Virus record (IMG/VR): IMGVR_UViG_3300028115_001816 | Span: 1-64,000 of that record | DNA length: 64,000 nucleotides | Direction: 5' to 3' (one strand) | From: a virus | Shown here: piece after piece, positions 37,042-62,278 of the stretch | Layout: every line of letters starts with the position of its first letter | Numbering within the stretch: the first letter of the stretch is position 1 | Notes under the pieces: generated by a model | The model's input: only the letters and a program-made list of their open reading frames with translations | The model's database searches: none | What the model was told of the DNA's origin: nothing | Position numbers and translations under genes: made by a program

Positions 37042-37386
37042 ATGACAAATCAAGAAGAATATGCTCGTGAAAGATTCGAGCTCAATAGACAAAAACAAAC
37101 ACTAAAAGAACAACAACAACAAAGATTGACTGTGCCTTATAATGGAGGACTGTTCAAAGTTGATATGACACTGCTAAACTATTTGTACATGAAGTGTGCA
37201 AATGCAGGATTATTTCAATCCAGCAGAGAGGATATACTAACTGACAGTTACGATACACCTATAAAAATAGATGTGCAAGAATTATTAGTACTAGCAGACC
37301 AACGTTGGAAAGAAGTTCATAATGATTGGTACAATCAATACCAAGAACTTAAAACAAAACGCAAAGCAGGTGACGTTGAAGTCTAA
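37042..37386 (+). CDS. Hypothetical protein
   Basis: First ORF after the promoter; no recognised motif. Confidence 0.7.
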   Translation: MTNQEEYARERFELNRQKQTLKEQQQQRLTVPYNGGLFKVDMTLLNYLYMKCANAGLFQSSREDILTDSYDTPIKIDVQELLVLADQRWKEVHNDWYNQYQELKTKRKAGDVEV

Positions 37387-38155
37387 AGGTGTACTGTTAT
37401 TATACAGTGAGAATAGTAAGTTAGATTATGAACGTCTGGCTGAACTTGCAGCACGACTAGCAGAGCATTATTTAGGTGTTCCTAGTACTATTGTAAAACT
37501 AGATGTTGTCCAAGAAAATATTCGTACATTTAGATATGAAGATGGCGTTGAAACTATAGCATGGAATAACATAGGACGTTATGATGCTTTTAATTTAAGT
37601 CCATATGATGAAACCATTCTTATTGATACCGACTATTTCATTCAAAATGATAACCTAGCAAACTATTTTGAAACCGATCAAGACTTTTTATGTCATAATA
37701 GTAGTTATGATGTAACAGGAAATGAGATATTTAGACACAACCGTTTTTTAGAAAGTGGTGGTAATGGATTTGAAATGCGTTGGGCCACAGTAGTATATTT
37801 TAAGAAGAGCAAACATGCAAAACAGATCTTTGATACTTGGAGGACTGTTTACGAAAATTATGAATATTATGGTAAATTGTTAGGATTTAGACGTACGCCT
37901 TTTCGAAATGATTTTGCATTAAGTATTGCTCACAATATTTGTAATGGATATGCAAATACAAACACATTTGTACACAACTTGCCTGCAATAAGCACAACAG
38001 ACAGTGTAATAGACTATGGAAATAATAATTGGTTAATCAAATATAATATTAGAAATAGTAAAAACATAATGCGTTATAAGGGTGATTTACATGTTATGAA
38101 TAAAAAATGTATTTTACAAACTGACGTATACGATAAACTATGGAATAGTATATGA
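37376..38155 (+). CDS. GT-A fold glycosyltransferase-like protein
   Basis: LSPYDETILIDTDY (DxD), RNDFALSIA, HVMNK; likely TTG start at 37376 after AGGTG (track start 37322). Confidence 0.65.
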   Translation: MKSKGVLLLYSENSKLDYERLAELAARLAEHYLGVPSTIVKLDVVQENIRTFRYEDGVETIAWNNIGRYDAFNLSPYDETILIDTDYFIQNDNLANYFETDQDFLCHNSSYDVTGNEIFRHNRFLESGGNGFEMRWATVVYFKKSKHAKQIFDTWRTVYENYEYYGKLLGFRRTPFRNDFALSIAHNICNGYANTNTFVHNLPAISTTDSVIDYGNNNWLIKYNIRNSKNIMRYKGDLHVMNKKCILQTDVYDKLWNSI

Positions 38156-38970
38156 GAGAAAAGAAATACAACCAAGGATATTTAACTTTTGCTCAAGGCA
38201 AACAATATCTAAATTGTGCCTACTTGCTTGCTCTTAGTGTTAAAACTTATTGTAAAATTAATAAGTTTGCAGTTGTTGTAGACGAAAATACTCCTGTGCC
38301 AGAACATATGACTAGAGTTTTTGATGAAGTTATTACAATACCTACTATGGAACCTTTTGCAAATGAGTGCCTAGCATGGGAACTTACACCATTTAAAGAA
38401 ACATTTAAGGTTGAGAGTGATATGCTTATTACAAGTAGTATAGATCACTGGTGGTCAGGGGTTAGACTCAAAAATATTTGTTTTACTACACAAGTTTGTA
38501 ACTATAGAGGTGAGTTTGCAGATGATAGTAACTATAGAAAAATGTGGCAAGAAAACAATATGCTCAATGTTTATAATGGCTTTATGTATTTTAGGCATTG
38601 TGTAGAAACAAAGAAGTTTTTTGACGATTGCAAAACTGTATTAAATACATTTAATATATACAAATCGAGTATTTTGAAAAATTGCAGACACGAGTACGCA
38701 GATACAGATGTGTTTATGAGCATAGTTGCTACTGAAACTGGTAGCGAAGATTTTTATGTGCCGACACTAGACTATCCGACATTCACACATATGAAACGTT
38801 ATATAAATCGATTTGGTACAGATGATTGGCGTGATGCGTGTAGTTGGGCATTAACAGATGATAAAATATTTTTAGTAAATGGATATGCCCAAACACGCCC
38901 TTTCCATTATTATCACAAAGACTTTTGCACAGAGGAGTTAACCAAAAGATATGAGCAGTTCGTTCTTTGA
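38152..38970 (+). CDS. GT-A fold glycosyltransferase-like protein
   Basis: QGYLTFAQ, FDEVI, LTPFKETFKVESDM (ExD), PFHYYHK; paralog of previous gene. Confidence 0.6.
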   Translation: MREKKYNQGYLTFAQGKQYLNCAYLLALSVKTYCKINKFAVVVDENTPVPEHMTRVFDEVITIPTMEPFANECLAWELTPFKETFKVESDMLITSSIDHWWSGVRLKNICFTTQVCNYRGEFADDSNYRKMWQENNMLNVYNGFMYFRHCVETKKFFDDCKTVLNTFNIYKSSILKNCRHEYADTDVFMSIVATETGSEDFYVPTLDYPTFTHMKRYINRFGTDDWRDACSWALTDDKIFLVNGYAQTRPFHYYHKDFCTEELTKRYEQFVL

Positions 38971-39235
38971 AGCACAACATGTATTCGAGTCTGCACCACC
39001 TCCAGAAATACGTTTGTATTATAATCAAGAAGGTGTTATACTTGATAAAAAATATGTAAAAAAGGATTTATCCGAAAACAAAACTTACATTGTAATTACA
39101 CAAGAACAGTATGATGCAATCAATTTTGAAAGACATCGTGTAATAGATAAAGAATTAGTTTGGATAACGCCTAAAAAAACAAACTGGTTTTTAAAACAGG
39201 AAGAATTAGCAAGGAATCCTTATGTCAAAGATTGA
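38951..39235 (+). CDS. Hypothetical protein
   Basis: Overlaps both neighbours in the coupled operon. Confidence 0.6.
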   Translation: MSSSFFEAQHVFESAPPPEIRLYYNQEGVILDKKYVKKDLSENKTYIVITQEQYDAINFERHRVIDKELVWITPKKTNWFLKQEELARNPYVKD

Positions 39236-40133
39236 TGTAGCAGATTTAGATTGTATATATCTAAGTTATGATGAACCTAAAAAAGAAGAGTTCTGGGCTA
39301 AGATACAAAACATGGTACCCTGGGCAAAACGTGTTGACGGCGTTAAAGGATCTGATGCTGCACACAAAGCAGCAGCCAGTGCTAGTGATACTGAGCGTTT
39401 TGTACTAATAGATGGCGACAATATGCCTTATCCAGAATTTTTCGATATAACTTTAGATATAAAACCTGAACATGAAGACTGTGTATTTCGTTGGAAAGCA
39501 GTGAACGCAGTCAACGGACTTATGTATGGTAACGGAGGTATAAGTTGTTGGACACGTGAGTTTGTAAACAACATGCAGACACATGAAAATAGCAATGGAG
39601 CAGATGAAAACGAAGTAGAGTTTTGTTATGATCCAAAATATTTGGCTATGAATAATGTTTATAGCACCACGCATCCTAATGGTGATGAGTTCCACGCATG
39701 GAGAGCAGGATTTAGAGAAGGTGTAAAGATGTGTTTGAAGAAAGGCACAAAGCCTAGTCTGTTAGAATTTAACGAAATGGTTCATCGCAGTAACTTTGAT
39801 AGACTAAGCATATGGCACAACATAGGTGCTGACGCAGAATATGGTGATAGTTGTATAGCAGGTGCTAGATATGGTACTTACAGGACAATGCTTACTGAAT
39901 GGGATTACACAGAAGTACAAGACTTTTACCATTTAGGCGAAATATACAGTGAATGGAAGACTGTTGATCAAACAAACATAAACAAGTTATTACAAACACG
40001 TTTAGGATTACACATAAGTGAGTTTACAAGTGAACAGAGTAAATTTTTTAAAAAACACTACTACAATACCTATACAAAATCAGATCCTATGACATTAGAA
40101 ATAGATATGCTAAGAAAGTCTGAAGGATGGTAA
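39222..40133 (+). CDS. Glycosyltransferase-like protein
   Basis: LSYDEP, RVDGVKGSDAAHKAAA, FVLIDGDN (DxD), NGLMYGNGG, AWRAGFREGVKM. Confidence 0.6.
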   Translation: MSKIDVADLDCIYLSYDEPKKEEFWAKIQNMVPWAKRVDGVKGSDAAHKAAASASDTERFVLIDGDNMPYPEFFDITLDIKPEHEDCVFRWKAVNAVNGLMYGNGGISCWTREFVNNMQTHENSNGADENEVEFCYDPKYLAMNNVYSTTHPNGDEFHAWRAGFREGVKMCLKKGTKPSLLEFNEMVHRSNFDRLSIWHNIGADAEYGDSCIAGARYGTYRTMLTEWDYTEVQDFYHLGEIYSEWKTVDQTNINKLLQTRLGLHISEFTSEQSKFFKKHYYNTYTKSDPMTLEIDMLRKSEGW

Positions 40134-41101
40134 CAATAGATATTACGCCTTACTGTGGAGCATCTAGGAATTGGAATACTGAAATATTAGCCTGTAAGAT
40201 TGCTCAAAACTCTAATGAAAAAATTATATTAGACCTCAAACATGAGGGTTGGGATATAGTTGAAAATGGTATAGAACAAAAGGTAAAGATTATTTGTGAT
40301 GAATTAAAAATACCTTACACACAAATAGAATTTAGAAGTAGTGATAGACTATGCAAAGCAAAAACATTCAAACATAAAAATACTATCGAACTTTTAAACT
40401 TTTTTGCAAGACTTTTTCAACAAGATATTCAAATAGTTTTGCCTAATAAGTTTCAATATGGATTATTCTGTGGTCGTGCAAGCAATGAAAGGTTATATGC
40501 CTTTTATCATCACAAAAATTGGAAGTATTCGAATAAAGGCAAAGCAAGTATGCATTTAGATGTTAATGATGTGCCGGAAGTTACTAGTGATTATGCAGAA
40601 TTTATCATTGAGTATAACAAAAAATGGAAAGAACTATGTAAAATACTACCATATAGCGATGTATCTCATTACATGAAACCTCCATTGCGTAGACAATCTG
40701 AAGACAAAAATCTATGGAATAACATTTATAAAGACATAGCAATAGAAATTGTTTGTGAAACAAATACAACTCCAGATACTTTTTTCATGACTGAAAAAAT
40801 TATACGTCCTATTGCATATGGAAAACTTTTTTTAGTAATAGGCAGTCCTAACTTTGAATTAAATTTAAAACATATTGGCTTTGACATTTTTGATGATATT
40901 ATTGACAAAAATTATGATAAAGAAAGTAGTTACATGAGAGTAGATAATGTTTTTCAAAGTTTAGAAAAGTTTTTAAGTAATCCAATAGATATAGAAGCAT
41001 TACTGCCACGACTAGAAGCAAACAAAAAAGTTTTAAATAAATTACCAGTGACAATGGCTGGAAACAAGATAGCAAAACTATTAGGACTTGATAATGAGTG
41101 A
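40127..41101 (+). CDS. GT10-like (fucosyltransferase-motif) glycosyltransferase candidate
   Basis: EIVCET..FMTEKIIRPI..FLVIG..GFDIFDDIIDKNYD resembles the GT10 E..YITEK donor motif. Confidence 0.5.
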   Translation: MVTIDITPYCGASRNWNTEILACKIAQNSNEKIILDLKHEGWDIVENGIEQKVKIICDELKIPYTQIEFRSSDRLCKAKTFKHKNTIELLNFFARLFQQDIQIVLPNKFQYGLFCGRASNERLYAFYHHKNWKYSNKGKASMHLDVNDVPEVTSDYAEFIIEYNKKWKELCKILPYSDVSHYMKPPLRRQSEDKNLWNNIYKDIAIEIVCETNTTPDTFFMTEKIIRPIAYGKLFLVIGSPNFELNLKHIGFDIFDDIIDKNYDKESSYMRVDNVFQSLEKFLSNPIDIEALLPRLEANKKVLNKLPVTMAGNKIAKLLGLDNE

Positions 41102-42452
41102 TTACTATCAAGATGCACTTGTTGCAAAAGATAAATTAGCAAATATAAGTGATAGTTTCTGTTTGGCTAAATGGAAACAAGTAAGTCTGCATCTTACTAC
41201 TGGACATACTAATAGTTGTTATCATCCTCCTTTACATAAAATTCCAATTGCACCACTCTGGGATAATCCTAGTGCATTACATAATACAGAACACAAAAAA
41301 CAAAGTCGCCGTGAAATGATGCAAGGCGTAAAATGTACAGATTGTAATTATTGTTGGAATATAGAAGCACAAGGTAACATAAGTGATAGGCATTATCGTA
41401 GTGGTGAGCCTTGGGCAATGGATAGTTTTGATGAAATAGTTGCTAATCCAGATGCAGATATAAATCCTAGTTATGTAGAAGTTAATTTTAATAATGTTTG
41501 TAATCTTGCATGTAGTTATTGTTCACCACAATTTAGTAGTACATGGACAAAAGAAACTAATTCACTAGGTGCATGGCCCACTACTACACCTCATAATGCT
41601 CCAGAACACTTTACAGGTGAACGCAGAGCAATACCTAACAGAGAAGAAAATCCATACAGAGAAGCATTTTGGCGTTGGTGGCCTGACCTATATAAAGATT
41701 TAAAACATTTTCGTATGACAGGAGGCGAACCTACTATGGATCCAAACACTTACCGTGTGTTTGACTATGTGCTTGAGAATCCCAAAACAGATCTTCATCT
41801 AAATACTACAAGTAATTTTAGCGTTGAAGAAAAGATATGGCAAAAGTACAAGTCGTATGTTCAGCGACTATGTCAAGGTCAACAAATAGAGCATTTTATG
41901 CAATTTGTCAGTCTCGATACTTGGGGTTCTCAAGCAGAATACATTAGACATGGTTTAAACTTTGACCTTGCGATAAATAGATGTGAAGAGTTTGTTAGAG
42001 ATGTACCATATAGAAGCAGTCTAACATTCATCATCACAATGAACAACCTTAGTATTCTTTCATTAAAAAAACTTTTAGAGTATATAGTATACTTGCGTAA
42101 AACATATACAGATACGTATCAACGTATTTGGTTCGATACACCGCTTTTGTATACACCAGAATGGCAAAGTTTACAAATACTTCCTAAAGAATTTAGTATT
42201 TTAATGGATGATATAGTGAAGTATATGGAAGATAACTTAGATGAAATGCATGGATTTAAAGATTACGAAGTTCTTAAGATGAAGAGAGATAGAGATTGGA
42301 TGTTAGCAGGTACAGAAAATGTAGAACGTAAAAGAGGTGACTTTTTTAAGTTTTTTAGCGAACATGATCGTCGCAGAGGAACAAACTTTTTAGAAACATT
42401 TCCTGAGATGGCAACTTTTTGGCAACAGTGCGAGTATTGGAGTAGTAAATGA
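41088..42452 (+). CDS. N-terminal twitch-domain radical SAM protein
   Basis: FCLAKW..SCYH..CNYCW, then CNLACSYC, TGGEP. Confidence 0.88.
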   Translation: MIMSDYYQDALVAKDKLANISDSFCLAKWKQVSLHLTTGHTNSCYHPPLHKIPIAPLWDNPSALHNTEHKKQSRREMMQGVKCTDCNYCWNIEAQGNISDRHYRSGEPWAMDSFDEIVANPDADINPSYVEVNFNNVCNLACSYCSPQFSSTWTKETNSLGAWPTTTPHNAPEHFTGERRAIPNREENPYREAFWRWWPDLYKDLKHFRMTGGEPTMDPNTYRVFDYVLENPKTDLHLNTTSNFSVEEKIWQKYKSYVQRLCQGQQIEHFMQFVSLDTWGSQAEYIRHGLNFDLAINRCEEFVRDVPYRSSLTFIITMNNLSILSLKKLLEYIVYLRKTYTDTYQRIWFDTPLLYTPEWQSLQILPKEFSILMDDIVKYMEDNLDEMHGFKDYEVLKMKRDRDWMLAGTENVERKRGDFFKFFSEHDRRRGTNFLETFPEMATFWQQCEYWSSK

Positions 42453-42826
42453 ATAGAATAAAAAAACTTAATCCTTCTATAAATCCTATTACGTTTAAGG
42501 ACGGAAGAGGCATTATACAGACTTACCTGCCAGAAACAGATACAATAAAAGAATGGAACTATATTGTTACACTTAAAGGTGCTGTAAGAGGACATCATTA
42601 TCATAAAGAATTTGATGAATATATTATGTTTGTTGATGGTGAGGGTGTATACACTGAACTAACAGATGGCAAAGAGCTAGTAACTCCAGTAGCATCTGGT
42701 GATTGTGTATACTTACCCATGCATGTACCACATACATTCTATCCTACTGCTGACTGCAAAATGATTGCACTGATTACTAAAAGATGGGATAAATGCCAAG
42801 AACCTATAACAAAGGTACAGATATGA
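42449..42826 (+). CDS. Cupin, FdtA/WxcM-like sugar ketoisomerase
   Basis: DGRG, VRGHHYH, PMHVPH cupin motifs. Confidence 0.7.
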   Translation: MNRIKKLNPSINPITFKDGRGIIQTYLPETDTIKEWNYIVTLKGAVRGHHYHKEFDEYIMFVDGEGVYTELTDGKELVTPVASGDCVYLPMHVPHTFYPTADCKMIALITKRWDKCQEPITKVQI

Positions 42827-43719
42827 AAATAATGATTACAGGTGCATTAGGTTATTTAGGCACTCAACTTCTATCACAACTTGTTGATACTGATGTAGAA
42901 ATAATAGCCATTGACAATAGCACTGAAGCAATATCAAGTCGATTAGGAAGTTTTTTATACAACACTAAATTTTCTTTTTACAATGTAAATGTAACCGATA
43001 CACAGCGATTAAACGCATTGCCCAAAGTTGATTTAATTGTACATTTAGCCAGTGTGGTAGGATATATTAGTTGTAATATTACTCCTGGACTAGCACATGA
43101 CACAAACGTAATAGGTACAGAAAATATTGCTAATTTAAATACTCCTGTTATATATCTAAGCAGTGGAAGTATATACGGTGAAATCGGAGACGTGTGCAAT
43201 GAGGAAACACAAATTAATCCTAAAAGTCTATATGCCGAACATAAAGTTCTCGGCGAGAAGGCGGTAAGTCGCGTTTCCAATGTTATACTTAGACCTGCGA
43301 CATTGTTTGGCTGTAGTTATAAGATCAGAGACGACTTACTGGTACACACACTGATACAAGACGCAGTTAGAACTAACTATATAGATTTATATCAGCCTTA
43401 TGCTCGTAGAAGTTTTTATAGCGTCCGTAAAATGGCTAGTCTTTTAAAATATATATGTGAAAATTACAGTAAATTTGAAGGTGAAGTAGTGAACGTAGGA
43501 TGTGAAACCGGAAACCTTACTAAAAGACAGTTATGTGAAATTATTTCAAAATATACTAACACGGATATTAGAATAGTGCTTGGCCAGGATTTGGATAGTA
43601 GAGATTATAACATTGATTATGGAAAACTTAAATCTTTATGGTCAGAGTATGATGAAAATTTTGAATTACATATACCCAAATTGGTGAGATATTATGAAAA
43701 TATTAGTAACAGGAAGTAG
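42823..43719 (+). CDS. NAD-dependent epimerase/dehydratase (extended SDR)
   Basis: MKIMITGALGYLG, HLA, SSGSIYG, YAEHK; start at second Met overlapping upstream stop. Confidence 0.88.
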   Translation: MKIMITGALGYLGTQLLSQLVDTDVEIIAIDNSTEAISSRLGSFLYNTKFSFYNVNVTDTQRLNALPKVDLIVHLASVVGYISCNITPGLAHDTNVIGTENIANLNTPVIYLSSGSIYGEIGDVCNEETQINPKSLYAEHKVLGEKAVSRVSNVILRPATLFGCSYKIRDDLLVHTLIQDAVRTNYIDLYQPYARRSFYSVRKMASLLKYICENYSKFEGEVVNVGCETGNLTKRQLCEIISKYTNTDIRIVLGQDLDSRDYNIDYGKLKSLWSEYDENFELHIPKLVRYYENISNRK

Positions 43720-55066: not shown

Positions 55067-55479
55067 GTTTTGATTGGAAAAAACCCACAGTACAAATGCT
55101 TGGTAGATGGCAACCCTGGCATGAAGGACATACACAATTGTTTGAACGTGCAATAGAGATAACAGGACAAGTTTGTATTATGGTTCGTGATGTAGGTGGA
55201 ATAATTGGCGAAGATGCAGGTGCAGGAAGAACAATAAAACAAGATGATAATCCTTTTGATTTTGATAAAGTTTCTGAAGATATTGCAGGAAAATTATTTA
55301 CCAGAGGATATATAATAGGTGAAGAATTTGAAGTAATGCTAGTTCCTAATATTGTAGATATTAGTTACGGAAGAGGTGTAGGTTATACATTTACAGAACA
55401 TGACTTAGGAGAACGTGTTCATAATATTAGTGCAACTAAAATAAGAAAAGAAATGAGAGAAAATGGTGAATTGGATTAG
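55063..55479 (+). CDS. HxGH nucleotidyltransferase (cytidylyltransferase-like)
   Basis: GRWQPWHEGH, DNPF, ISATKIR. Confidence 0.8.
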   Translation: MSFDWKKPTVQMLGRWQPWHEGHTQLFERAIEITGQVCIMVRDVGGIIGEDAGAGRTIKQDDNPFDFDKVSEDIAGKLFTRGYIIGEEFEVMLVPNIVDISYGRGVGYTFTEHDLGERVHNISATKIRKEMRENGELD

Positions 55480-55495: not shown

Positions 55496-56215
55496 ATGTA
55501 TTACGGAAACGATATTCTAATGTCCTTTGTAGAATATTCTGGCGGAAAATTTGTAAAAAATTGTATTTGTTTAAGTAAATATTTTTTATTCAATTCTAAA
55601 GATAAAGATTTAGAATACCTTATTAATAATCCCGAAGATTATCAATATAAACTCAAATGTATTTTAAGTACTTTGCCAAAAAAAGAAAATATGAAACATT
55701 GGAGGACATACGAATTTGGAGAAATAGATAGGAATAGTACAATTTTTTTGCTTGCTAAGAAAAAAGGATTTAGATTTGCAAGAACTATGCATAGTTTTAG
55801 TAAAGATCTTTTAAATCTTTGCAAAGATGCAGTTATAATTAAACTTATAAATTACGAAAAATTTAGAGATATTGCTAGTAAACTAAAACATGCAAATTTA
55901 AAAGAAACTGACGAATGTGAAAGCAAGTATAAAATAGTAGCAGGTGATGACTGGCCTTCATTTCAAAAATTACAAAGTTCAGGCTTTAATACAAAATTTT
56001 TAGAGATTACAGATCAAAATATATTAGAAGATATTCATAAATATTATCAATTTGGTACCATAGAAAATAAAATGTTTTTGTATGATAAAGATAAAATTTT
56101 TAATATGTCGGATTTTATGAGTCAAATGAAAAAATTATATGAGTATTTAAATCTAGATGATTTCAACGAGGAGTTGGTTTCGGTGTATTATACAGAATAT
56201 ATGAAATTACATTAG
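55496..56215 (+). CDS. Hypothetical protein
   Basis: N-terminal YSGGKF loop, internal YKIVAGDDWPSF; function not recognised. Confidence 0.55.
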   Translation: MYYGNDILMSFVEYSGGKFVKNCICLSKYFLFNSKDKDLEYLINNPEDYQYKLKCILSTLPKKENMKHWRTYEFGEIDRNSTIFLLAKKKGFRFARTMHSFSKDLLNLCKDAVIIKLINYEKFRDIASKLKHANLKETDECESKYKIVAGDDWPSFQKLQSSGFNTKFLEITDQNILEDIHKYYQFGTIENKMFLYDKDKIFNMSDFMSQMKKLYEYLNLDDFNEELVSVYYTEYMKLH

Positions 56216-56226
56216 GAAATAAGAAA

Positions 56227-56331
56227 ATGATAAATTGGGTCAAAAGTATTATTAATAAAATTAAACTTGAAATACGCTATAGAAAGCGTTTGAAAGAATT
56301 AAGAAAAAGGGATCCATTTATATACAAATGA
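56227..56331 (+). CDS. Small basic protein, 34 aa
   Basis: Not in ORF track. MINWVKSIINKIKLEIRYRKRLKELRKRDPFIYK; AGGA SD; ATGA overlap with carbamoyltransferase. Confidence 0.65.
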   Translation: MINWVKSIINKIKLEIRYRKRLKELRKRDPFIYK

Positions 56332-57842
56332 TATTAGGACTAAGTGCAGGCTTTCATGATGCTGGAGCCACGTTAATTGATAAAAGTGGAAATATAAGGT
56401 TTGCAGGACATGCAGAACGTTATAGCGGTGTAAAGAATGATGCAAATTTAAACCAACAGCTTGTTGATGATGCACTAAGTTATGGTAAGCCTACAAGTAT
56501 TGCTTGGTACGAAAATACATGGCTAAAAAGAACACGTCAACTTTACAGTGGTGAATGGCGAAAAGCAATTGACTTTAATACAAGTCCTAAAAAACTAGTA
56601 ATGCCATATTTTAAGCAAACAGGACTTCTTCCAAAAACACAAAAGTTATCTATAAAAAGTTATTCACATCACAAATGTCATGCTGCCGCAGGTTTTCAGA
56701 CAAGTCCATTTAAAGAAGCAATAGCCATAGTAGTAGATGCTATTGGTGAATGGGATACAATTAGTGTTTGGAAATGTAGTTACAAACCTGTATACTTAGG
56801 AAGACCAATTGCACAGTATAAAAAAATATGGCATCAAGTATATCCACACAGTATAGGACTTTATTATAGTGCAATTACAAAGTACATAGGACTTAAACCT
56901 ATGGAAGATGAATATATTACAATGGGTATGGCAGCATATGGAAAGGCATATTTAAAAGCATATGAAGATAATTTAAAACTTGTACATGATGAAAAAGAAA
57001 TACTGTTCACACAAAATATGCACATAGGTTTAGAGGACGACTATTTTGTAGGTACTGGTTGCGATAAATTTGATATTGCTTCTGGTGCTCAGAAAGTAGT
57101 TGAGCAATTATTAAGAGGATTGTTTGAACGTTTTGCTACAAGGCAAACGAACGTCGTATTCATGGGCGGAGTAGCACTTAATTGTGTTGCAAATTCTATG
57201 CTAGAAAGTCATTGTAAAGACTTATGGATTATGCCTAATCCTGGAGATTGTGGAAGTAGTTTAGGTGCGGCAGCTTTGCAATGGGGTAAAAAGTTGCATT
57301 GGCGAGGACCATACTTAGGACACAACATACCAGGTGAGTATCCAGTAGATGCTATTATTGGTGGTTTGATTAGTAATAAAATTGTAGGAGTAGCAAGTGG
57401 TAGAGCAGAGTTTGGACCACGTGCATTAGGCACAAGAAGTTTACTAGCAGATCCACGTGGTGAAGACATAAAAGACAAAGTAAATAGTATAAAGAAAAGA
57501 CAAAAATTTAGACCATTTGCTCCTATGATTCTTGAAGAACATTTTAAAGATGAATTTGTAGTTTACAAAAAAGACAAAGAACCTTATATGCAAAGTGTTT
57601 ACAAATGTAAACATCCGGAGTTATATCCAGCAATAGTACACAAAGATGGAACAAGTAGAGTACAAACTGTAGGAAAAAATGATCATCCAGATGTACGAGC
57701 ATTGTTAGAAAAGTGGTATTTTATGACAGGTTGTCCTATGTTGTTAAACACAAGTTTAAATATAAAAGGTGAACCTATGGTAAACAATCGTGCTGATGCA
57801 GATAGATTTCAAAAAAAGTATAATGTAAAGGTATATAGTTAA
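56328..57842 (+). CDS. Carbamoyltransferase (CmcH/NodU/TobZ family)
   Basis: GFHDAGA, HHKCHAA, VDAIGE, GGVALNC, GRAEFGPRALG.RS, FRPFAP, HKDGTSRVQTV, LNTSLN. Confidence 0.93.
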   Translation: MILGLSAGFHDAGATLIDKSGNIRFAGHAERYSGVKNDANLNQQLVDDALSYGKPTSIAWYENTWLKRTRQLYSGEWRKAIDFNTSPKKLVMPYFKQTGLLPKTQKLSIKSYSHHKCHAAAGFQTSPFKEAIAIVVDAIGEWDTISVWKCSYKPVYLGRPIAQYKKIWHQVYPHSIGLYYSAITKYIGLKPMEDEYITMGMAAYGKAYLKAYEDNLKLVHDEKEILFTQNMHIGLEDDYFVGTGCDKFDIASGAQKVVEQLLRGLFERFATRQTNVVFMGGVALNCVANSMLESHCKDLWIMPNPGDCGSSLGAAALQWGKKLHWRGPYLGHNIPGEYPVDAIIGGLISNKIVGVASGRAEFGPRALGTRSLLADPRGEDIKDKVNSIKKRQKFRPFAPMILEEHFKDEFVVYKKDKEPYMQSVYKCKHPELYPAIVHKDGTSRVQTVGKNDHPDVRALLEKWYFMTGCPMLLNTSLNIKGEPMVNNRADADRFQKKYNVKVYS

Positions 57843-58157
57843 ATGGTAGATGAAAACGAATTAAGACAAAGAGTAATTGAATCACTACAAACAGTGTACG
57901 ATCCTGAAATGCCCAGTGTAAGTGTATATGATTTAGGACTTATATATAAAATAGAAATAAAAGATGACTGGGTTGGCATAGAACACACACTTACCAGTAT
58001 GGCTTGTCCTTTTGCTGATCAAATTTGTGCAGACATAGAAAATGCAGTAATGACCACACCTGGTGTTCGTGCTATTGATAGACAGTTGGTATTTGAACCT
58101 ACATTTACAATGGAAATGGTTCCTGAAGAAACTAAACTAATTATGGGATGGTACTAA
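57843..58157 (+). CDS. DUF59/SufT (MIP18-like) Fe-S cluster maturation protein
   Basis: VYDPEM..SVYDLGLIY..TLTSMACP. Confidence 0.88.
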   Translation: MVDENELRQRVIESLQTVYDPEMPSVSVYDLGLIYKIEIKDDWVGIEHTLTSMACPFADQICADIENAVMTTPGVRAIDRQLVFEPTFTMEMVPEETKLIMGWY

Positions 58158-58267: not shown

Positions 58268-59509
58268 ATGTTCGATATTTATTGTATGCAAATGGGTGGT
58301 AAAACAAGTCTGCCAAAACATACACAATATACCAGATATAATAATACTCATTTAGCAACTATAAAACGTATAGTTGAAAAAGCTCAGACTGAATACGTAT
58401 GGGTTGTAAGTGATTTATGTGACTATACAGATTTTGATTTCACATGGCAACCTGTTCCTTGGGAAGCAGATCAAATACATTGTTGGGCAAGTAACAATCA
58501 ACAGTATGGTGATACTTTTTTGATACCTGTAAGTGCGTTTAAGCGTCAAGCAGACACCCTAAAAGTATTAGGCTGGTACAAACATATAAATTGGCATAGT
58601 GATGGTGTAAAACGGACTACATTAGGCAACATGTATGACTGGATTCATTATAGTGATGCACGTTTTGAATTTACTCCTAATTTATGGGAAAAACGCATTC
58701 TACATAGTTTTGGAAAGAATGGTAGCGTACTACTAGTGCCTAGAGACTGTAAACAGTATTTTAGGACACAATATTATGACTATCCCTATATATTGCGTCA
58801 TACTGACTGGAATGTAAACGAAAAACCACAAGATATAGTGTTCATTAGTTATGACGAAAAAAACGCCGATTTAAACTATAATATACTTAAAAAACAGCAT
58901 TCGAGAACTAAAAGATTACATGGTATAAAAGGTATGGAAAATGCTTTGTATGAAGCAGCTATGCTAAGTGATACAGATTGGTTTTTTGCAGTATTTGCAA
59001 AAACACTTATACATGAAAATTTTGATTTTAGTTACTTGCCTGATAGACTACAAGGCAATAAGCATTATATCTTTAATTGTAAAAATACAGTAAACGATTT
59101 AGAATATGGACATATGGGGATAATTCTCTATAATAAACAAATGATTATAGAAAGTCATGACTATGAAAAGTTAGGCTTAGATTATACTATGAGTCATAGG
59201 CATGATGTCGTGCCTGAGGTAAGTTGTTATGGAGTTTTCAACACAAGTGCTTTTGAAACATGGCGAAGTGCATTTAGAGAAACAATAAAACTTGCACAAC
59301 AACTAGATGAAAAACCTACAATAGAAACCAGATATAGATTAAAAGTTTGGTGTACAAAAGCACAAGGTGACTTTGCAGAATATTGCACTGCAGGTGCTAA
59401 TCATGGAGTTGAGTTTTATAACCAATATAAAAATGATATGCAAGAATTAAAGAAAACTTTTAGATGGGATTGGTTGCAATCTTATTTTGATAACAAGTTT
59501 TTAACTTGA
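58268..59509 (+). CDS. Two-domain glycosyltransferase-like protein (C-terminal half paralogous to 39222-40133)
   Basis: TEYVWVVSD; DIVFISYDE, LHGIKG, NDLEYGHMG, TWRSAFRETIKL. Confidence 0.55.
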   Translation: MFDIYCMQMGGKTSLPKHTQYTRYNNTHLATIKRIVEKAQTEYVWVVSDLCDYTDFDFTWQPVPWEADQIHCWASNNQQYGDTFLIPVSAFKRQADTLKVLGWYKHINWHSDGVKRTTLGNMYDWIHYSDARFEFTPNLWEKRILHSFGKNGSVLLVPRDCKQYFRTQYYDYPYILRHTDWNVNEKPQDIVFISYDEKNADLNYNILKKQHSRTKRLHGIKGMENALYEAAMLSDTDWFFAVFAKTLIHENFDFSYLPDRLQGNKHYIFNCKNTVNDLEYGHMGIILYNKQMIIESHDYEKLGLDYTMSHRHDVVPEVSCYGVFNTSAFETWRSAFRETIKLAQQLDEKPTIETRYRLKVWCTKAQGDFAEYCTAGANHGVEFYNQYKNDMQELKKTFRWDWLQSYFDNKFLT

Positions 59510-60333
59510 TCAACAGTGTCTGCTACTGCTAATGCACTATTGATATTTGTAGTTGGTTGTTTTCTGCTTTTAACACAATTTATAAAATGTTCTAATTCGT
59601 ATTCTAAAGGTGATTTATCATAGTCATAAATGTAAACTGTTGGTGATACGGCTATGGCTCTGTTGTCTGTAACACGGTTGAGATAGTGTGTAACAGTATT
59701 TTGATCTTGGTCCCAAACTATTTGTCCCTTTGTTCCTAGTATAGTTGTCCTACGTATTCTTGTAGGCGAATACCAACTTACATCAATGTCAAATCGTTCT
59801 CCTGAAAACCATACTCTATCAGGATTTGTTTGGCTAGTAAAATTAAACTGCCTTGCCACTGTAGGTTTAATAGTGCCTATCAATTCTTGCACTATTGAAA
59901 TATCATGCACTGCTAAACTTAACAGTGGATCTGTTTTTGTTTGATATATCCCCCAATTTGATCTTTCACTACTAACATGTATGATTTCACCAATGTCAAT
60001 ATTTGTTATCTTTTCCATCTGTGGATGATGTATAAAGATATGTCCAACCATCAGTATATGATTGTCAACTATTCTTGCTATATGTTCTAATTGTTCTTCT
60101 GTTTCTGCCATTGGTTTTTCAACATAAACATCATGACCTCTGCTTAAAAGTTCTACAGTCTGTTCATAGTGTTGCCATAATGGAGTTGCAAGTATTACTG
60201 GGTCAGTGTTTTTGATATCGTCAATTGTTTGTCCATTTTTAATATCAATTATGTTTGTGCTTACACCAAGTTTTTGCAAACTTTGGTCAACTTTACTTCC
60301 CCAATAACCTGCACCAACTAAATTTACTTTCAT
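59482..60333 (-). CDS. Gfo/Idh/MocA oxidoreductase (WlbA/WbpB-like)
   Basis: VGAGYWG, ATP..H, VYVEKPMA, VGH, LAVHD. Confidence 0.88.
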   Translation of the reverse strand: MKVNLVGAGYWGSKVDQSLQKLGVSTNIIDIKNGQTIDDIKNTDPVILATPLWQHYEQTVELLSRGHDVYVEKPMAETEEQLEHIARIVDNHILMVGHIFIHHPQMEKITNIDIGEIIHVSSERSNWGIYQTKTDPLLSLAVHDISIVQELIGTIKPTVARQFNFTSQTNPDRVWFSGERFDIDVSWYSPTRIRRTTILGTKGQIVWDQDQNTVTHYLNRVTDNRAIAVSPTVYIYDYDKSPLEYELEHFINCVKSRKQPTTNINSALAVADTVDQVKNLLSK

Positions 60334-61409
60334 CGTACTTTTATAACCTTTTGTGCTATATATTCTACTTGTGAGTCTGTAAGACTTGGATAAACAGGTA
60401 TACTAAAAATTTCATTACTAAGTTTTTCTGTATTAGGCAAGTTTTTATGCCAGGGAGCAAATGCTGGTGTAGAGTGTGCAGGGTTTGCATAATGAATATT
60501 TGTTTGTATACCGTGTTCTAATAATTCATTTCTTATTCTATCTCTATTTTCATGTTGTAACACATAAACATAATAACTATGTTGTCCCCAACCTAATTCT
60601 TGCATTCTAGTATAATAATTTTTAAATTGCTCATTGTAGTATTGTGCAATTTGGTATTTTCGATCTAGCCATCCTTGTAAGTAAGGAAGTTTGGCTTGTA
60701 CTACCTTTGCTTGAATATTATCAATACGAGCATTATAACCTAAGTATTCGTATACGTATTTTGTATCTCTACCGTGGTTGCTATAGTACCTTGCTAAGTC
60801 TACTAAATCCTTGCGACCAGTAACACATCCTGCATCACCTATTGCTCCTAAATTTTTTACAGGATTAAAACTAATACACGTCAAATCTGCTAAACTGCCT
60901 ACTCGTCTATTTTTATATTTGTATCCAAAAGATTGAGCAGCATCCGCAATAGCAAAAATATTGTGTTTTCTACATAGAGATACTAATGCATCACAATCAG
61001 GAGTTTGACCATATAAATCTACCCATAATATTGCTTTAGTTTTATCTGTAATTAAACTTTCTGCTTGTGCAATATCTATAAGTCCTGTGGTTTCATCTAC
61101 ATCACAAAAAACTGGAGTAGCACCTACTGTGCATACTGCTTCAGGAGTACTTACAAAAGTATGACTTACAGTAATTACTTCATCGCCTGGGCCTATTCCA
61201 CATGCTTTTAAACTTATTTGTAATGCAGTAGTGCCAGAACCACATGCACTACAACCTTCTGCACCTGTATATTCAGCAAATATTTTTTCAAACTCTGTAA
61301 CATCAGGACCTGTAATAAAACTATTATTTTCCAAACAATGTTTTATTGCTTGGTCAATTTCTGTTTTACATTCTTGATATTCAGATTGTAAATCTGTAAA
61401 TGTTATCAT
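60330..61409 (-). CDS. DegT/DnrJ/EryC1/StrS PLP aminotransferase
   Basis: SGTTAL, GPGDEVI, DAAQSFG, SFNPVKNLGAIGDAG, GYNARID. Confidence 0.93.
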   Translation of the reverse strand: MITFTDLQSEYQECKTEIDQAIKHCLENNSFITGPDVTEFEKIFAEYTGAEGCSACGSGTTALQISLKACGIGPGDEVITVSHTFVSTPEAVCTVGATPVFCDVDETTGLIDIAQAESLITDKTKAILWVDLYGQTPDCDALVSLCRKHNIFAIADAAQSFGYKYKNRRVGSLADLTCISFNPVKNLGAIGDAGCVTGRKDLVDLARYYSNHGRDTKYVYEYLGYNARIDNIQAKVVQAKLPYLQGWLDRKYQIAQYYNEQFKNYYTRMQELGWGQHSYYVYVLQHENRDRIRNELLEHGIQTNIHYANPAHSTPAFAPWHKNLPNTEKLSNEIFSIPVYPSLTDSQVEYIAQKVIKVR

Positions 61410-62278
61410 AGTCTACTTAGAACTTCATCTAATCCTTGTGTCAGAGAAAATTTAGGACTGTAACCTAATTCTGTTTTTGCTTTAGTAATATCTAATGTGC
61501 CTCTTGTGGGATAATTATCAGGTACTGGTTCAGCAGTATAATTAGGTTTCTTGTTTAGTTTTTTATACAACATATTTGTAAAATTTTCAAGTGTATGTGC
61601 TTCGCTTCTAGTAATATTATAAATTTGATTATTAGCACCGTTTTCACATATTAGTTGTAAGCCTTGGATAACATCATCCACATGAGTAAAATCAAATAGG
61701 TTATCTGCACCTTTTAGTACTATAGGTTGATTGTTCATAATTTTGTTTATAAAAAGTTGCGTAACACGTTTACGATTATCACCATAACCATATACTGCAC
61801 TTGGTCTTACTATTGTATAATTGTTATGGAACTGCTTTACTATGCCTTCTCCTAGTAATTTTAGTTGTCCATATATATTGTTAGGAGATGCTAAGTCTTT
61901 CTCAGACATGGATTCTTTTGTCCAGTTACCGTATACCATACTACTGCTTATGTAAATAAAGTGACTGTCTTGATACTGTCTTATGGCTCTGCTTAATCCT
62001 TGAGTTCCAGTACGATATGCTTCTTTGGGATTTTGTATAACACTTGCTAGATTTGGTCTAGCTGCTAAAAAAATAACTGTATCAAATTCTAAGGGTGTAT
62101 TTGCAATACGATATATTTTGCCTCTTGGAATATCTAAATTTATATTTTGATCACTTAATAAATCAAATGTTGAACAATCGTATTTTTCATTGGATAGTTC
62201 TATAAAGCGACTGCCTATAAATCCTTCTCCGCCTATTAGTAATATTTTATCCAAAGTATACCTCATATAATACACCAA
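61406..62278 (-). CDS. NAD-dependent epimerase/dehydratase (start may be TTG at 62254)
   Basis: GGEGFIG, SSSMVYG, YGQLK, RPSAVYG, DFTHVDD. Confidence 0.88.
   Translation of the reverse strand: MVYYMRYTLDKILLIGGEGFIGSRFIELSNEKYDCSTFDLLSDQNINLDIPRGKIYRIANTPLEFDTVIFLAARPNLASVIQNPKEAYRTGTQGLSRAIRQYQDSHFIYISSSMVYGNWTKESMSEKDLASPNNIYGQLKLLGEGIVKQFHNNYTIVRPSAVYGYGDNRKRVTQLFINKIMNNQPIVLKGADNLFDFTHVDDVIQGLQLICENGANNQIYNITRSEAHTLENFTNMLYKKLNKKPNYTAEPVPDNYPTRGTLDITKAKTELGYSPKFSLTQGLDEVLSRL

What the first reader, a model, noticed from the sequence alone, without database searches (positions are those of the whole stretch)
37042..62278. Phage multi-radical-SAM glycan-tailoring island beside the tail genes (candidate new system)
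Seen: about 25 kb of tightly coupled genes. They encode 6 rSAMs (5 N-twitch, 1 B12-dependent), about 7 GT-like genes from three apparent families, 3 SDR epimerases, a cupin, a Gfo/Idh/MocA plus DegT pair, an APS kinase plus nucleotidyltransferase, a carbamoyltransferase, a possible 2OG oxygenase and a DUF59 factor. The island starts directly after the last tail gene. Established: these families build nucleotide sugars, transfer them and decorate them. Inference: the phage makes an unusual radical-tailored glycan. The likeliest target is its own virion (Ser/Thr-rich tail proteins are adjacent); DNA hypermodification or host-surface remodelling are alternatives. No flippase, polymerase or obvious membrane enzyme is visible, which argues against a simple O-antigen locus.
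Basis: partly seen in the sequence, partly recalled or inferred. Interest (0 to 1): 0.9.

Follow-up and report, generated by a model that had tools for sequence, protein, structure and literature searches.

The report
Jumbo-phage radical-SAM sugar-tailoring island
A fragment of an uncultured salt-marsh giant phage carries, just behind its tail-fibre genes, 25 kb of soluble sugar-building and sugar-transferring enzymes plus six iron-sulfur "radical SAM" enzymes; five of these belong to a family with no known reaction, and the island most likely makes a heavily edited sugar decoration whose target is unmeasured.

Summary
Window 37042-62278 is a tightly packed block of about 31 soluble proteins. 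It has five NF033640 N-terminal-twitch radical SAM enzymes, one B12-type radical SAM and seven glycosyltransferase-fold proteins in three families. It also has three SDRs, a cupin, a Gfo/Idh/MocA-DegT pair, a P-loop kinase with an HxGH nucleotidyltransferase, a NodU/TobZ-type carbamoyltransferase and a DUF59 Fe-S helper.

A conserved core recurs in all 24 related viral contigs fetched. A five-gene mini-version sits at the same place in the cultured Ralstonia jumbo phage RsoM2USA. The core is two GT8-like genes, a DGD-motif GT-A, five rSAM orthogroups, the carbamoyltransferase and an overlooked 34-codon basic micro-ORF.

Bacterial relatives of the rSAMs most often sit beside Wzt/GT2/DegT polysaccharide genes. 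So a radical-tailored glycan is well supported.

The target is not settled. The island has its own consensus sigma-70 promoter instead of the late-type motif of the tail genes. Metatranscriptome contigs drop about tenfold at its left edge. Virion glycosylation remains the leading guess. Host-surface remodelling, DNA modification and a glycopeptide product remain open.

This scan has already reported the same kind of island in at least 81 other genomes. No searched paper characterises it.

The parts
36085..36984 (+). Context: Ser/Thr-rich (26%) 299-aa protein, the last gene of the tail-fibre block; no family hit
   Evidence: homologues precede the island in related loci
37007..37035 (+). Consensus sigma-70 promoter (TTGACA-17-TATAAT with TG), with a GC hairpin in the spacer; the ATG lies 7 nt downstream
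   Evidence: 12/12 match; perfect copies at the same place in L010, L011, L012; fold z -4.4
37042..37386 (+). Conserved 114-aa protein of unknown function, first gene of the island
   Evidence: no Pfam/PHROG/NCBIfam hit; homologues in 18 loci
37322..38155 (+). GT8-like GT-A protein, distant paralogue of the next gene; the true start is probably GTG 37370 or TTG 37376
   Evidence: RsoM2USA ORF353 31% identical
38152..38970 (+). GT8-like GT-A glycosyltransferase candidate (ExD aligned to the DxD of glycogenin)
   Evidence: profile vs PDB glycogenin E 0.008; Atlas lead PF03407/PF01501; RsoM2USA ORF352 28% identical
38951..39235 (+). 94-aa unknown protein, present only in the closest relatives
39222..40133 (+). 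Most conserved non-rSAM gene: GT-A fold domain (residues 2-158) with an invariant DGD motif, plus a helical C-terminal domain
   Evidence: 60-76% identity in all loci; AF2 pLDDT 87; Foldseek RmlT 1e-4 and PBCV-1 A64R 1e-3; VIA Z 9.6; at least 8000 unnamed metagenome clusters; RsoM2USA ORF350 40% identical
40127..41101 (+). Minimal GT-B fold glycosyltransferase candidate (family with 44496 and 45478)
   Evidence: AF2 pLDDT 86; all top Foldseek hits are GT-B; VIA Z 9.2-9.6 to T4 BGT/AGT, GT10 FucT and WsaF
41088..42452 (+). N-terminal-twitch radical SAM, orthogroup A
   Evidence: NF033640 315 bits; own clade with one member per phage; groups with RsoM2USA ORF349
42449..42826 (+). Cupin (possible NDP-sugar isomerase or epimerase), variable cassette
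   Evidence: Cupin_2 32 bits; absent from related loci
42793..43719 (+). SDR NAD-dependent epimerase/dehydratase, variable
   Evidence: PF01370 89 bits
43694..44506 (+). SDR epimerase/dehydratase, variable
   Evidence: PF01370 86 bits
44496..45539 (+). GT-B family member, variable
   Evidence: shares homologues with 40127
45436..45464 (+). Internal sigma-70-like promoter (11/12) before 45478
   Evidence: perfect copies at the matching place in L009 and L014
45478..46620 (+). GT-B family member, paralogue of 40127
   Evidence: blastp E 7e-8; alignment A3
46610..48112 (+). B12-binding (class B) radical SAM, probable methyltransferase; variable cassette
   Evidence: present in L013, L033, L036 only
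48060..49493 (+). Three small ORFs (169, 212 and 101 aa) that travel with the B12 rSAM; 48553-49191 is a possible 2OG-Fe(II) oxygenase
   Evidence: co-occurrence; HxD...H motif and Atlas DUF6445 lead
49490..50890 (+). N-terminal-twitch radical SAM, orthogroup B
   Evidence: NF033640 309 bits; tree
50877..52181 (+). N-terminal-twitch radical SAM, orthogroup C, nested among bacterial sequences
   Evidence: NF033640 399 bits; at least 7584 homologues; tree
52174..53343 (+). N-terminal-twitch radical SAM, orthogroup E
   Evidence: NF033640 324 bits; tree
53333..54610 (+). N-terminal-twitch radical SAM, orthogroup D
   Evidence: NF033640 297 bits; tree
54611..55066 (+). P-loop kinase (AAA_33/APS-kinase type), specificity unknown
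55063..55479 (+). Minimal HxGH nucleotidyltransferase (WHEGH and ISATKIR motifs)
55496..56215 (+). 239-aa unknown protein, not found in any related locus
56227..56331 (+). Micro-ORF of 34 codons: a very basic peptide ending in RKRDPFIYK, its stop overlapping the ATG of the next gene
   Evidence: present in 24 of the 27 phage-type loci searched; up to 7 synonymous codons per position while 12 of the last 20 residues are invariant; 249 stand-alone cluster representatives, none fused to an enzyme
56328..57842 (+). NodU/CmcH/TobZ-type carbamoyltransferase, core gene
   Evidence: Carbam_trans_N 118 bits and Carbam_trans_C 172 bits; 51-73% identity in 24 loci
57843..58157 (+). DUF59/SufT-like Fe-S cluster assembly protein
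   Evidence: PF01883 64 bits
58268..59509 (+). Two-domain protein; its C-terminal 230 aa are homologous to 39222 but DGD is replaced by FAK
59482..60333 (-). Gfo/Idh/MocA oxidoreductase (best hit: sugar-nucleotide 3-dehydrogenase type), variable
60330..61409 (-). DegT/PseC-type sugar aminotransferase, variable
   Evidence: PF01041 342 bits
61406..62278 (-). SDR epimerase/dehydratase (RmlD/GDP-mannose-dehydratase-like), variable

Best explanation
This is a conserved accessory island of an uncultured salt-marsh jumbo myophage. It encodes a wholly soluble pathway that makes, transfers and chemically edits unusual sugars in the infected cell.

Shown:
- Enzymes for nucleotide-sugar supply and tailoring: SDRs, a cupin, a dehydrogenase-aminotransferase pair and a kinase-nucleotidyltransferase pair.
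- Seven glycosyltransferase-fold proteins in three families.
- Five anciently diverged, non-redundant N-terminal-twitch radical SAM enzymes, plus one B12-type radical SAM.
- A carbamoyltransferase preceded by a translationally coupled, near-invariant 34-codon basic micro-ORF.
- An Fe-S assembly helper.
- A core that is conserved across a large aquatic phage lineage and, in reduced form, in the cultured phage RsoM2USA.
- The island's own sigma-70-type promoter.

Inferred:
- The glycosyltransferases assemble an oligosaccharide on a cytoplasmic acceptor.
- Each rSAM performs a different radical edit on the sugar or nucleotide-sugar (oxidation, dehydration, epimerisation or C-C chemistry), by analogy with BtrN, viperin, MoaA and BlsE.
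- The B12 rSAM C-methylates the sugar and the carbamoyltransferase O-carbamoylates it.
- The variable cassettes diversify the product between phage strains.
- The most likely acceptor is a phage-made protein, probably a Ser/Thr-rich tail fibre or baseplate protein. I put this last step at about 40%.
For: - Family and fold assignments.
- Core synteny in 24 viral loci, with variable cassettes between them.
- Five separate rSAM orthogroups, each with 95-100% SH-aLRT support.
- RsoM2USA ORF348-353 lie in the same order after the baseplate, giant structural protein and tail genes.
- In bacteria the commonest neighbour of N_Twi rSAMs is Wzt (16 of 73 loci), then GT2, DegT and PhyH.
- The nearest solved relatives of the rSAMs act on nucleotides or sugars (viperin 3e-7; the BtrN twitch domain aligned to the N-terminal domain, 5e-4; MoaA; BlsE).
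- No transmembrane segment in any island protein.
- No Wzm, WecA-type or WbaP-type transferase and no Wzy_C ligase in the complete RsoM2USA genome or in four related partial genomes.
- Adjacent tail-fibre proteins are 24-28% Ser+Thr.
- GT-A matches include protein-directed enzymes (glycogenin, PBCV-1 A64R, SunS/ThuS).
Against: - No glycan, acceptor or enzyme activity has been measured anywhere.
- The GT assignments rest on moderate fold scores (Z about 9.6, Foldseek 1e-3 to 1e-4) and one weak profile hit.
- The island is not co-regulated with the tail genes. It has a sigma-70 promoter rather than the late-like motif, and RNA-library contig depth falls about tenfold at 37000 (a weak hint by the tool's own rules).
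- Adjacency to tail genes could be inherited synteny, because all carriers are related.
- The record is only about 17% of the genome, so missing partners may lie elsewhere.
Confidence: 0.6

Rival explanations
1. Host-envelope remodelling. The phage enzymes build or edit an O-antigen-like chain on the host's own undecaprenyl-linked acceptor. The host ABC transporter exports it, changing the cell surface during the long latent period, for example to block superinfection. This is how the published 'host recognition cluster' of pelagimyophages and cyanomyophages was interpreted.
For: - Bacterial N_Twi rSAMs sit beside Wzt, GT2 and DegT genes.
- In ABC-transporter-dependent pathways the glycosyltransferases are soluble, so the lack of TM proteins fits.
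- The early-type sigma-70 promoter and low RNA relative to late genes fit.
- PMC7029224 describes tail-fibre-adjacent hypervariable islands with GT8 enzymes and radical SAM cassettes and proposes O-chain modification.
Against: - No initiating transferase, transporter or ligase in the island, in the complete RsoM2USA genome or in four relatives.
- Wzt transporters usually recognise a specific chain terminus, so a foreign glycan may not be exported.
- Conserved placement in the structural region across 35-40%-identity phages is not explained.
Confidence: 0.2
2. DNA hypermodification. The glycosyltransferases decorate a modified base in phage DNA with a tailored glycan to evade restriction, as in T-even and other phages.
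For: - The GT-B model's top VIA rows include T4 beta- and alpha-glucosyltransferases (Z 9.3-9.6).
- The island has an early-type promoter.
- It abuts thyX and replication genes on its right.
- It has a P-loop kinase and a nucleotidyltransferase.
- RsoM2USA is reported to have two ThyA-family genes, one of them divergent.
Against: - No hydroxymethylase, DpdA or other base-entry enzyme in the 78-kb record.
- ThyX here and full-length ThyA matches in two relatives look canonical.
- The T4 BGT/AGT rows are tied with many other GT-B enzymes.
- Seven GT-like proteins, six rSAMs and a carbamoyltransferase would far exceed any DNA glycan known to me.
Confidence: 0.08
3. Peptide-based or small-molecule product. 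The near-invariant 34-residue basic micropeptide is the scaffold or precursor on which the rSAMs, glycosyltransferases and carbamoyltransferase act (a RiPP-glycan hybrid, as with mycofactocin). Alternatively, the island makes a free aminoglycoside-like metabolite.
For: - The micro-ORF is under strong purifying selection at the protein level and present in 24 of the 27 phage-type loci searched.
- It is always stand-alone with a fixed C-terminus.
- Twitch/SPASM rSAMs are typical peptide maturases (weak NCBIfam hits; SkfB 6e-5).
- The enzyme types (BtrN-like rSAM, DegT, Gfo/Idh/MocA, TobZ-like carbamoyltransferase, B12 rSAM) also occur in aminoglycoside pathways (my knowledge).
Against: - No RRE/PqqD-like domain, peptidase or exporter was found.
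- The RsoM2USA mini-module and the bacterial N_Twi loci lack the peptide.
- No 2-deoxy-scyllo-inosose synthase or other aminocyclitol entry enzyme was seen.
- The peptide could equally be an enzyme partner or a translational coupling device.
Confidence: 0.12

Closest known systems
NCBIfam NF033640, N_Twi_rSAM (twitch domain-containing radical SAM protein)
   Same: All five paralogues pass the curated cut-off by a wide margin. They have the N-terminal 4-Cys auxiliary-cluster domain and the CxxxCxxC core.
   Different: The family is catalogued only. I found no characterised member in the literature searched. Here five ancient lineages of it are kept together in one phage island.
Host recognition cluster (hypervariable island beside tail fibres) of pelagimyophages and cyanomyophages, PMC7029224
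   Same: A variable island in the structural region of large aquatic myophages with tail fibres, GT8 and other glycosyltransferases, LPS-type sugar genes and radical SAM cassettes.
   Different: It was described in T4-like phages of about 150-200 kb, not Rak2/RsoM2USA-like jumbo phages. The rSAMs were not typed, no conserved core or micropeptide was described, and its function was only proposed. Homology between the two islands was not tested here.
RsoM2USA ORF348-353 (Ralstonia jumbo phage, MG752970; PMC8504454)
   Same: Same order after the baseplate wedge, giant structural protein and tail genes: two GT8-like genes, a DGD GT-A (40% identity), one N_Twi rSAM (36%) and a second 39222-like gene.
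   Different: It has only one rSAM and no carbamoyltransferase, micropeptide, GT-B genes or sugar-tailoring cassettes. All genes are annotated hypothetical.
Virus-encoded virion glycosylation (mycobacteriophage capsid/tail glycans, Freeman et al. 2023 as cited in PMC12619734; PBCV-1 A64R; Mimivirus fibril clusters)
   Same: Soluble viral glycosyltransferases and sugar-nucleotide enzymes act in the cytoplasm on virion proteins. The 39222 model matches PBCV-1 A64R and Mimivirus R699 among GT-A folds.
   Different: None of those systems is known to me to contain radical SAM enzymes or a carbamoyltransferase. No virion glycan has been shown for this lineage.
ABC-transporter-dependent O-antigen/polysaccharide loci of Bacteroidota, Bdellovibrionota and others that carry N_Twi rSAMs
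   Same: They share the rSAM family together with GT2, DegT and PhyH neighbours.
   Different: The bacterial loci have Wzt and usually a single rSAM copy. The phage island has no transporter, initiating transferase or membrane protein.
Mycofactocin/PQQ-type pathways (short peptide + SPASM/twitch rSAM, with a glycosyltransferase in mycofactocin)
   Same: A short invariant peptide is encoded among twitch/SPASM-type rSAMs and glycosyltransferases.
   Different: No RRE chaperone, peptidase or flavoenzyme was found. The peptide is strongly basic and unrelated in sequence. The resemblance is from my knowledge and was not tested.

Membership tests
NF033640 N_Twi_rSAM | Whole-protein HMM score at or above the curated cut-off of 170 bits | tested here: met
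   297, 309, 315, 324 and 399 bits for the five ORFs
NF033640 N_Twi_rSAM | Radical SAM CxxxCxxC cluster motif and GGEP SAM-binding motif | tested here: met
   C153, C157, C160 and G213-G214-E215-P216 are invariant in 12 sequences
NF033640 N_Twi_rSAM | Auxiliary-cluster (twitch/SPASM-like) Cys domain placed N-terminal to the core | tested here: met
   Pfam SPASM at residues 4-106 in three ORFs; C43, C62, C103 and C106 invariant; profile residues 30-102 align to the BtrN twitch domain
Class B (B12-binding) radical SAM methyltransferase | N-terminal cobalamin-binding domain plus radical SAM core | tested here: inconclusive
   Radical_SAM 61 bits. B12-binding 31.2 bits against a cut-off of 32.1. 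Best NCBIfam hits are B12-rSAM methyltransferase families, all below their cut-offs.
GT-A glycosyltransferase (39222 family) | Nucleotide-diphospho-sugar transferase fold with a DxD metal/nucleotide motif | tested here: met
   pLDDT 87; Foldseek RmlT 1e-4; VIA Z 9.6, rmsd 3.1 over 141 residues to B4GALNT1; D64-G-D66 invariant. Catalysis not testable.
GT8 (glycogenin/LgtC-type retaining GT-A) for 37322 and 38152 | Sequence membership and DxD motif | tested here: inconclusive
   No Pfam hit. Profile vs PDB glycogenin E 0.008 over 95 residues, with ExD aligned to DAD. Atlas lead PF03407/PF01501.
GT-B glycosyltransferase (40127, 44496, 45478) | Two Rossmann-like domains matching solved GT-B enzymes | tested here: met
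   pLDDT 86. All top Foldseek hits are GT-B at E 1e-3 to 1e-2. VIA Z 9.2-9.6 over 220-250 residues. Scores are moderate, and only 40127 was modelled.
NodU/CmcH/TobZ carbamoyltransferase | Both Carbam_trans_N and Carbam_trans_C domains above cut-off | tested here: met
   118 and 172 bits. The NodU equivalog itself is not met (134 bits against 1000).
O-antigen/capsule biosynthesis locus | Initiating phosphoglycosyl transferase, flippase or ABC transporter, and polymerase or ligase | tested here: not met
   No such Pfam hit in the island. No TM segment. PF01061, PF00953, PF04932 and PF02397 are absent from the complete RsoM2USA genome and four related records, while the controls ring. The window's own genome is only about 17% sampled.
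Phage DNA hypermodification pathway | A base-entry enzyme (dNMP hydroxymethylase, DpdA and the like) linked to the transferases | tested here: inconclusive
   None in the 78-kb record. ThyX here and one full-length ThyA-type match in two of five relatives. Most of the genome is unseen.
RiPP biosynthetic cluster | Precursor peptide plus a recognition (RRE) element, maturase and usually a peptidase or exporter | tested here: inconclusive
   A candidate peptide exists. No RRE, peptidase or exporter domain was found. Bacterial family members sit in polysaccharide loci without the peptide.
Virion glycosylation system | Glycan covalently attached to a virion protein and dependent on the phage enzymes | not testable with these tools
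   Only context: position after the tail fibres and Ser/Thr-rich neighbours
   None of the 13 peptides scanned matched it at E up to 1. Very short queries are poorly served by HMM filters.

The most novel reading that the evidence does not exclude
The near-invariant, strongly basic 34-residue micropeptide (56227-56331) is the primer on which the glycogenin-like GT8 enzymes start a glycan, for example on one of its two invariant tyrosines. The GT-A and GT-B enzymes extend the chain. The five different N-twitch rSAMs, the B12 rSAM and the carbamoyltransferase then edit it. The phage's product would be a new kind of glycopeptide, a RiPP-glycan hybrid, and the first reactions for a radical SAM family of many thousands of members would be sugar edits on it.
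Probability: 0.12. Interest if true: 0.9.

Novelty: new variant of a known kind. Interest (0 to 1): 0.7.

Why it matters
- The N-terminal-twitch radical SAM family has at least 7584 homologues and, as far as I could find, no characterised member. The 39222-type GT-A family has at least 8000 unnamed clusters.
- Both families are abundant in aquatic phage metagenomes. Assigning them a reaction would annotate a large block of viral dark matter.
- If the product is a virion or cell-surface glycan, it bears on host range, superinfection and how jumbo phages are recognised. It would also add radical chemistry to viral glycobiology.
- The reduced version in the cultured phage RsoM2USA makes the question testable at the bench.

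Tried and rejected
- Megablast of the island and of the baseplate region against 50,697 phage records found nothing. Only protein-level relatives exist.
- tblastn of two rSAMs and of 39222 against isolated phages found only RsoM2USA, Vibrio phages K566/K567 and one marine virus fragment.
- PHROGs, Pfam and NCBIfam gave nothing for 13 island ORFs.
- The 39222 profile had no meaningful PDB sequence hit. The GT-B family profile gave only a weak GT10 TEK-motif hit, E 0.19.
- Literature searches for 'N-terminal twitch', for jumbo phage + radical SAM + glycosyltransferase, and for radical SAM + O-antigen + Wzt found no description of this system.
- The 'moraphage' paper (PMC12619734) lists four core glycosyltransferase orthogroups but no radical SAM genes. 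I could not show it is the same lineage.
- The SxtK/DUF5989 lead for the micropeptide was not supported. No fusion of the micropeptide to an enzyme was found.
- Bins without RNA-contig cover inside the island are not evidence of silence.
- The tree is the quick version. The careful search did not finish.
- I rejected recent tandem duplication as the origin of the five rSAMs. Each sits in its own orthogroup with one member per related phage.

Full report
**What the DNA is.** The window is the first 64 kb of a 77.9-kb IMG/VR viral record that CheckV rates about 17% complete. Upstream of the finding lie T4-type baseplate and tail genes:
- PHROG hits to baseplate hub, wedge and tail-fibre families.
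- A 1179-aa wedge protein 33-38% identical to those of Rak2, Atu_ph07, XaC1, SCTP-2 and other jumbo phages.
- A 4422-aa protein with FG-GAP repeats and a CBM5/12 module.

Near-identical DNA occurs in many 2018 salt-marsh metagenomes. Downstream, on the minus strand, are thyX, a VWA/metallopeptidase protein, an AAA protein and a 5'-3' exonuclease. The island therefore sits between the late structural block and a replication and nucleotide block.

*Radical SAM enzymes.* Five ORFs pass the NCBIfam model NF033640 (N_Twi_rSAM) at 297-399 bits against a cut-off of 170.
- Pfam puts a SPASM domain before the radical SAM core in three of them.
- In an alignment with seven homologues, four N-terminal cysteines, the CxxxCxxC motif and GGEP are invariant.
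- A profile of these proteins aligns its N-terminal domain to the C-terminal twitch domain of BtrN. Its best solved relatives are viperin, SkfB, BtrN, MoaA and BlsE.
- 46610-48112 is a B12-type radical SAM; its B12-binding domain scores just under the Pfam cut-off.

*Glycosyltransferase-like genes.* The "seven GT-like genes in three families" had no Pfam or PHROG hit, so I tested them by fold.
- 39222-40133 models at pLDDT 87. Residues 2-158 are a GT-A fold: Foldseek gives RmlT 1e-4 and PBCV-1 A64R 1e-3, and VIA gives Z 9.6. The DGD motif is invariant.
- 58268-59509 carries a homologous domain (hhalign E 6e-41) in which DGD is replaced by FAK. It may be non-catalytic.
- 37322 and 38152 form one family whose profile hits glycogenin (GT8) at E 0.008, with ExD aligned to the DxD motif. 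There is also an Atlas lead to PF03407/GT8.
- 40127, 44496 and 45478 form a third family. The model of 40127 (pLDDT 86) matches only GT-B enzymes: Foldseek about 1e-3, and VIA Z 9.2-9.6 to T4 BGT/AGT, GT10 fucosyltransferases and WsaF.

These fold scores are moderate. The assignments are to fold class, not to activity.

*Remaining items.*
- The kinase is a P-loop AAA_33/APS-kinase-type protein of unknown specificity.
- The 138-aa protein has the HxGH and ISxTKIR signatures of the nucleotidyltransferase superfamily.
- The "2OG oxygenase" is only a lead, at 48553-49191.
- No island protein has a predicted membrane span.

**Conservation.** A scan of IMG/VR with one rSAM returned 24 loci.
- A protein-versus-locus matrix shows a core present wherever the flank reaches. 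The core is the tail-fibre genes, 36085, 37042, 37322, 38152, 39222, rSAM 41088, rSAMs 49490, 50877, 52174 and 53333, the carbamoyltransferase and 58268. Identities are 22-95%.
- The SDRs, cupin, B12 rSAM with its three small partners, the kinase, DUF59, the GT-B copies and the three minus-strand sugar genes come and go.
- Three "MAG" contigs (one Legionellales, two Haliscomenobacter) carry the same phage island. One of the Haliscomenobacter contigs (L034) also carries tail-fibre genes. All three are probably mis-binned phage.
- A quick maximum-likelihood tree places each of the five window rSAMs in its own clade, with SH-aLRT 95-100 and one member per related phage. Orthogroups 41088 and 49490 share a clade (98% support) that also holds the RsoM2USA enzyme. 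Orthogroup 50877 nests among bacterial sequences.
- The five are therefore old, distinct lineages and presumably not redundant.
- Related records hold 5-7 copies above the cut-off, whereas none of 14 model genomes does.

**A cultured relative.** Among 50,697 isolated-phage records, only Ralstonia phage RsoM2USA has the 39222 family and the 41088-type rSAM.
- Its ORF353, 352, 350, 349 and 348 are, in order: two GT8-like proteins (31% and 28% identity), a 39222 homologue (40%), an N_Twi rSAM (36%) and a second 39222/58268-like protein.
- They lie on the same strand just after the baseplate wedge, a 2541-aa virion protein and the tail genes.
- The published description lists them as hypothetical (PMC8504454).
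- Vibrio phages K566/K567 have four divergent rSAMs of this kind without the other genes.

**Bacterial context.** In 73 bacterial loci with a family member, mostly Bacteroidota, Bdellovibrionota and Alphaproteobacteria, the most frequent neighbour is a Wzt ABC-transporter ATPase with the Wzt_C domain (16 loci). GT2, DegT and PhyH-type dioxygenases follow. This ties the family to polysaccharide biosynthesis rather than to peptides.

**Regulation.** The only intergenic gap at the left edge holds a perfect TTGACA-17-TATAAT promoter with an extended -10.
- The promoter is conserved letter for letter in three relatives.
- A second site, matching 11 of 12 positions, precedes 45478. It is perfect in two relatives.
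- By contrast, a T4-late-like [GAT]ATAAATA motif lies 33-45 nt before structural genes 6931, 14225, 31084 and 34617, and before no island gene.
- In contigs of four salt-marsh metatranscriptome runs, depth is 7-33 over 31000-37002 and 0-4 over 37003-50999. Contigs of three runs end at 36993-37000.
- The tool warns that contig depth cannot rank genes. The runs were found with island sequence, so any bias would favour the island. I treat the depth drop as a weak hint that the island is a separate unit with lower RNA levels.
- Calling the promoter classes "early" and "late" is inference by analogy with T4.

**An overlooked gene.** Following a lead in earlier notes of this scan, I found a 34-codon ORF at 56227-56331 whose stop overlaps the carbamoyltransferase ATG.
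- It is present in 24 of the 27 phage-type loci searched. Twelve of its last 20 residues are invariant, and the peptide ends in RKRDPFIYK, while the same codons show up to seven synonymous forms. That is selection on the peptide, not on the DNA.
- A profile search of 1.84 billion representatives found 249 matches. All are short proteins, in almost all the match ends at the C-terminus, and none is fused to an enzyme.
- The peptide has no Pfam match. It is absent from RsoM2USA and from bacterial loci with carbamoyltransferases.

**Interpretation.** The best-supported reading is a cytoplasmic pathway that makes nucleotide sugars, transfers them, and edits them by radical chemistry, methylation and carbamoylation. 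The variable cassettes would diversify the product. The steps from enzyme family to substrate are inferences.

For the acceptor I rank four options.

*1. A phage protein, most likely a Ser/Thr-rich tail-fibre or baseplate protein (about 40%).*
- The module keeps its place in the structural region across very distant phages.
- All its enzymes are soluble.
- The phages encode no initiating transferase, Wzm, or ligase.
- The GT-A matches include protein-directed enzymes.

*2. Host-surface remodelling through the host's own lipid carrier and transporter (about 20%).*
- This is how the published pelagimyophage "host recognition cluster" was read (PMC7029224).
- It fits the bacterial context and the early-type promoter.

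*3. A peptide-based or free small-molecule product (about 12%).*
- The micropeptide prompts this option.

*4. DNA hypermodification (about 8%).*
- There is no base-entry enzyme in the fragment, and thymidylate synthases are ordinary here and in two relatives.
- RsoM2USA does have a second, divergent ThyA-family gene.

**Novelty.** The rSAM family is catalogued but, in the literature I could search, uncharacterised. Tail-fibre-adjacent glycosyltransferase and radical SAM islands have been noted in marine T4-like phages without dissection. Virus-encoded virion glycosylation is known, but to my knowledge not with radical SAM enzymes.

This scan has already reported the same kind of island in at least 81 other genomes, including the RsoM2USA link, the micropeptide and, in one case, an early-type promoter. 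So this window is a further, well-documented member and not a first sighting. It adds a B12 rSAM cassette, a kinase-nucleotidyltransferase pair and metatranscriptome evidence for a transcription boundary.

Noticed in passing
window 17764-31032 (+): A single 4422-aa ORF between the baseplate wedge and the tail-fibre genes, with FG-GAP repeats and a CBM5/12 module. It is the positional counterpart of RsoM2USA ORF361 (2541 aa, found in virions by MS according to PMC8504454).
   Followed up: partly
window 610-1503 (-) and 1497-2528 (-): Two further radical SAM genes that are not N-twitch type (one has a C-terminal SPASM domain). They lie next to an SbcC/gp46-like ATPase (2525-4252), a Methyltransf_24 gene (4308-4994) and a calcineurin-like phosphoesterase (4995-6005). 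Homologues occur in L030 and L036.
   Followed up: partly
window 6889, 14192, 31039, 34580 (+): A T4-late-like motif [GAT]ATAAATA lies 33-45 nt upstream of four structural genes. Only three other + strand copies exist in the 78-kb record.
   Followed up: partly
window 37008-37031: A 10-bp GC-rich hairpin with a UACG loop fills the spacer of the consensus promoter. The ATG at 37042 is 7 nt after the -10 element, so the mRNA may be leaderless. RNA-library contigs of three runs end just upstream, at 36993-37000.
   Followed up: partly
window 33161-33523 (inside tail-fibre gene 31084-33891): All four metatranscriptome runs show contigs with loose ends at 33161, 33202 and 33236, and one shows a 286-nt skip (33236 to 33523). 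The population seems to carry alternative sequence in this part of the tail fibre.
   Followed up: no
L033 (PBLX01000002.1), L034 and L035 (NZ_JBBAKG01 contigs): Contigs filed under a Legionellales MAG and a Haliscomenobacter MAG carry the phage island; L034 also carries tail-fibre genes. They look like mis-binned jumbo-phage DNA.
   Followed up: partly
window 46610-49493: The B12 radical SAM and the three small ORFs after it occur together in L033, L013 and a Flavobacterium MAG contig (L036). They look like a mobile cassette.
   Followed up: partly
RsoM2USA (MG752970) ORF10 and ORF473: The published annotation lists two ThyA-family genes, one of them divergent. This would be worth checking as a possible pyrimidine hydroxymethylase.
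   Followed up: no
L114 (Vibrio phage K566, 161548-168284 of the record): A cluster of four divergent twitch-type radical SAM genes interleaved with hypothetical genes in a cultured 255-kb Vibrio phage. None of the island's glycosyltransferase families is present.
   Followed up: partly
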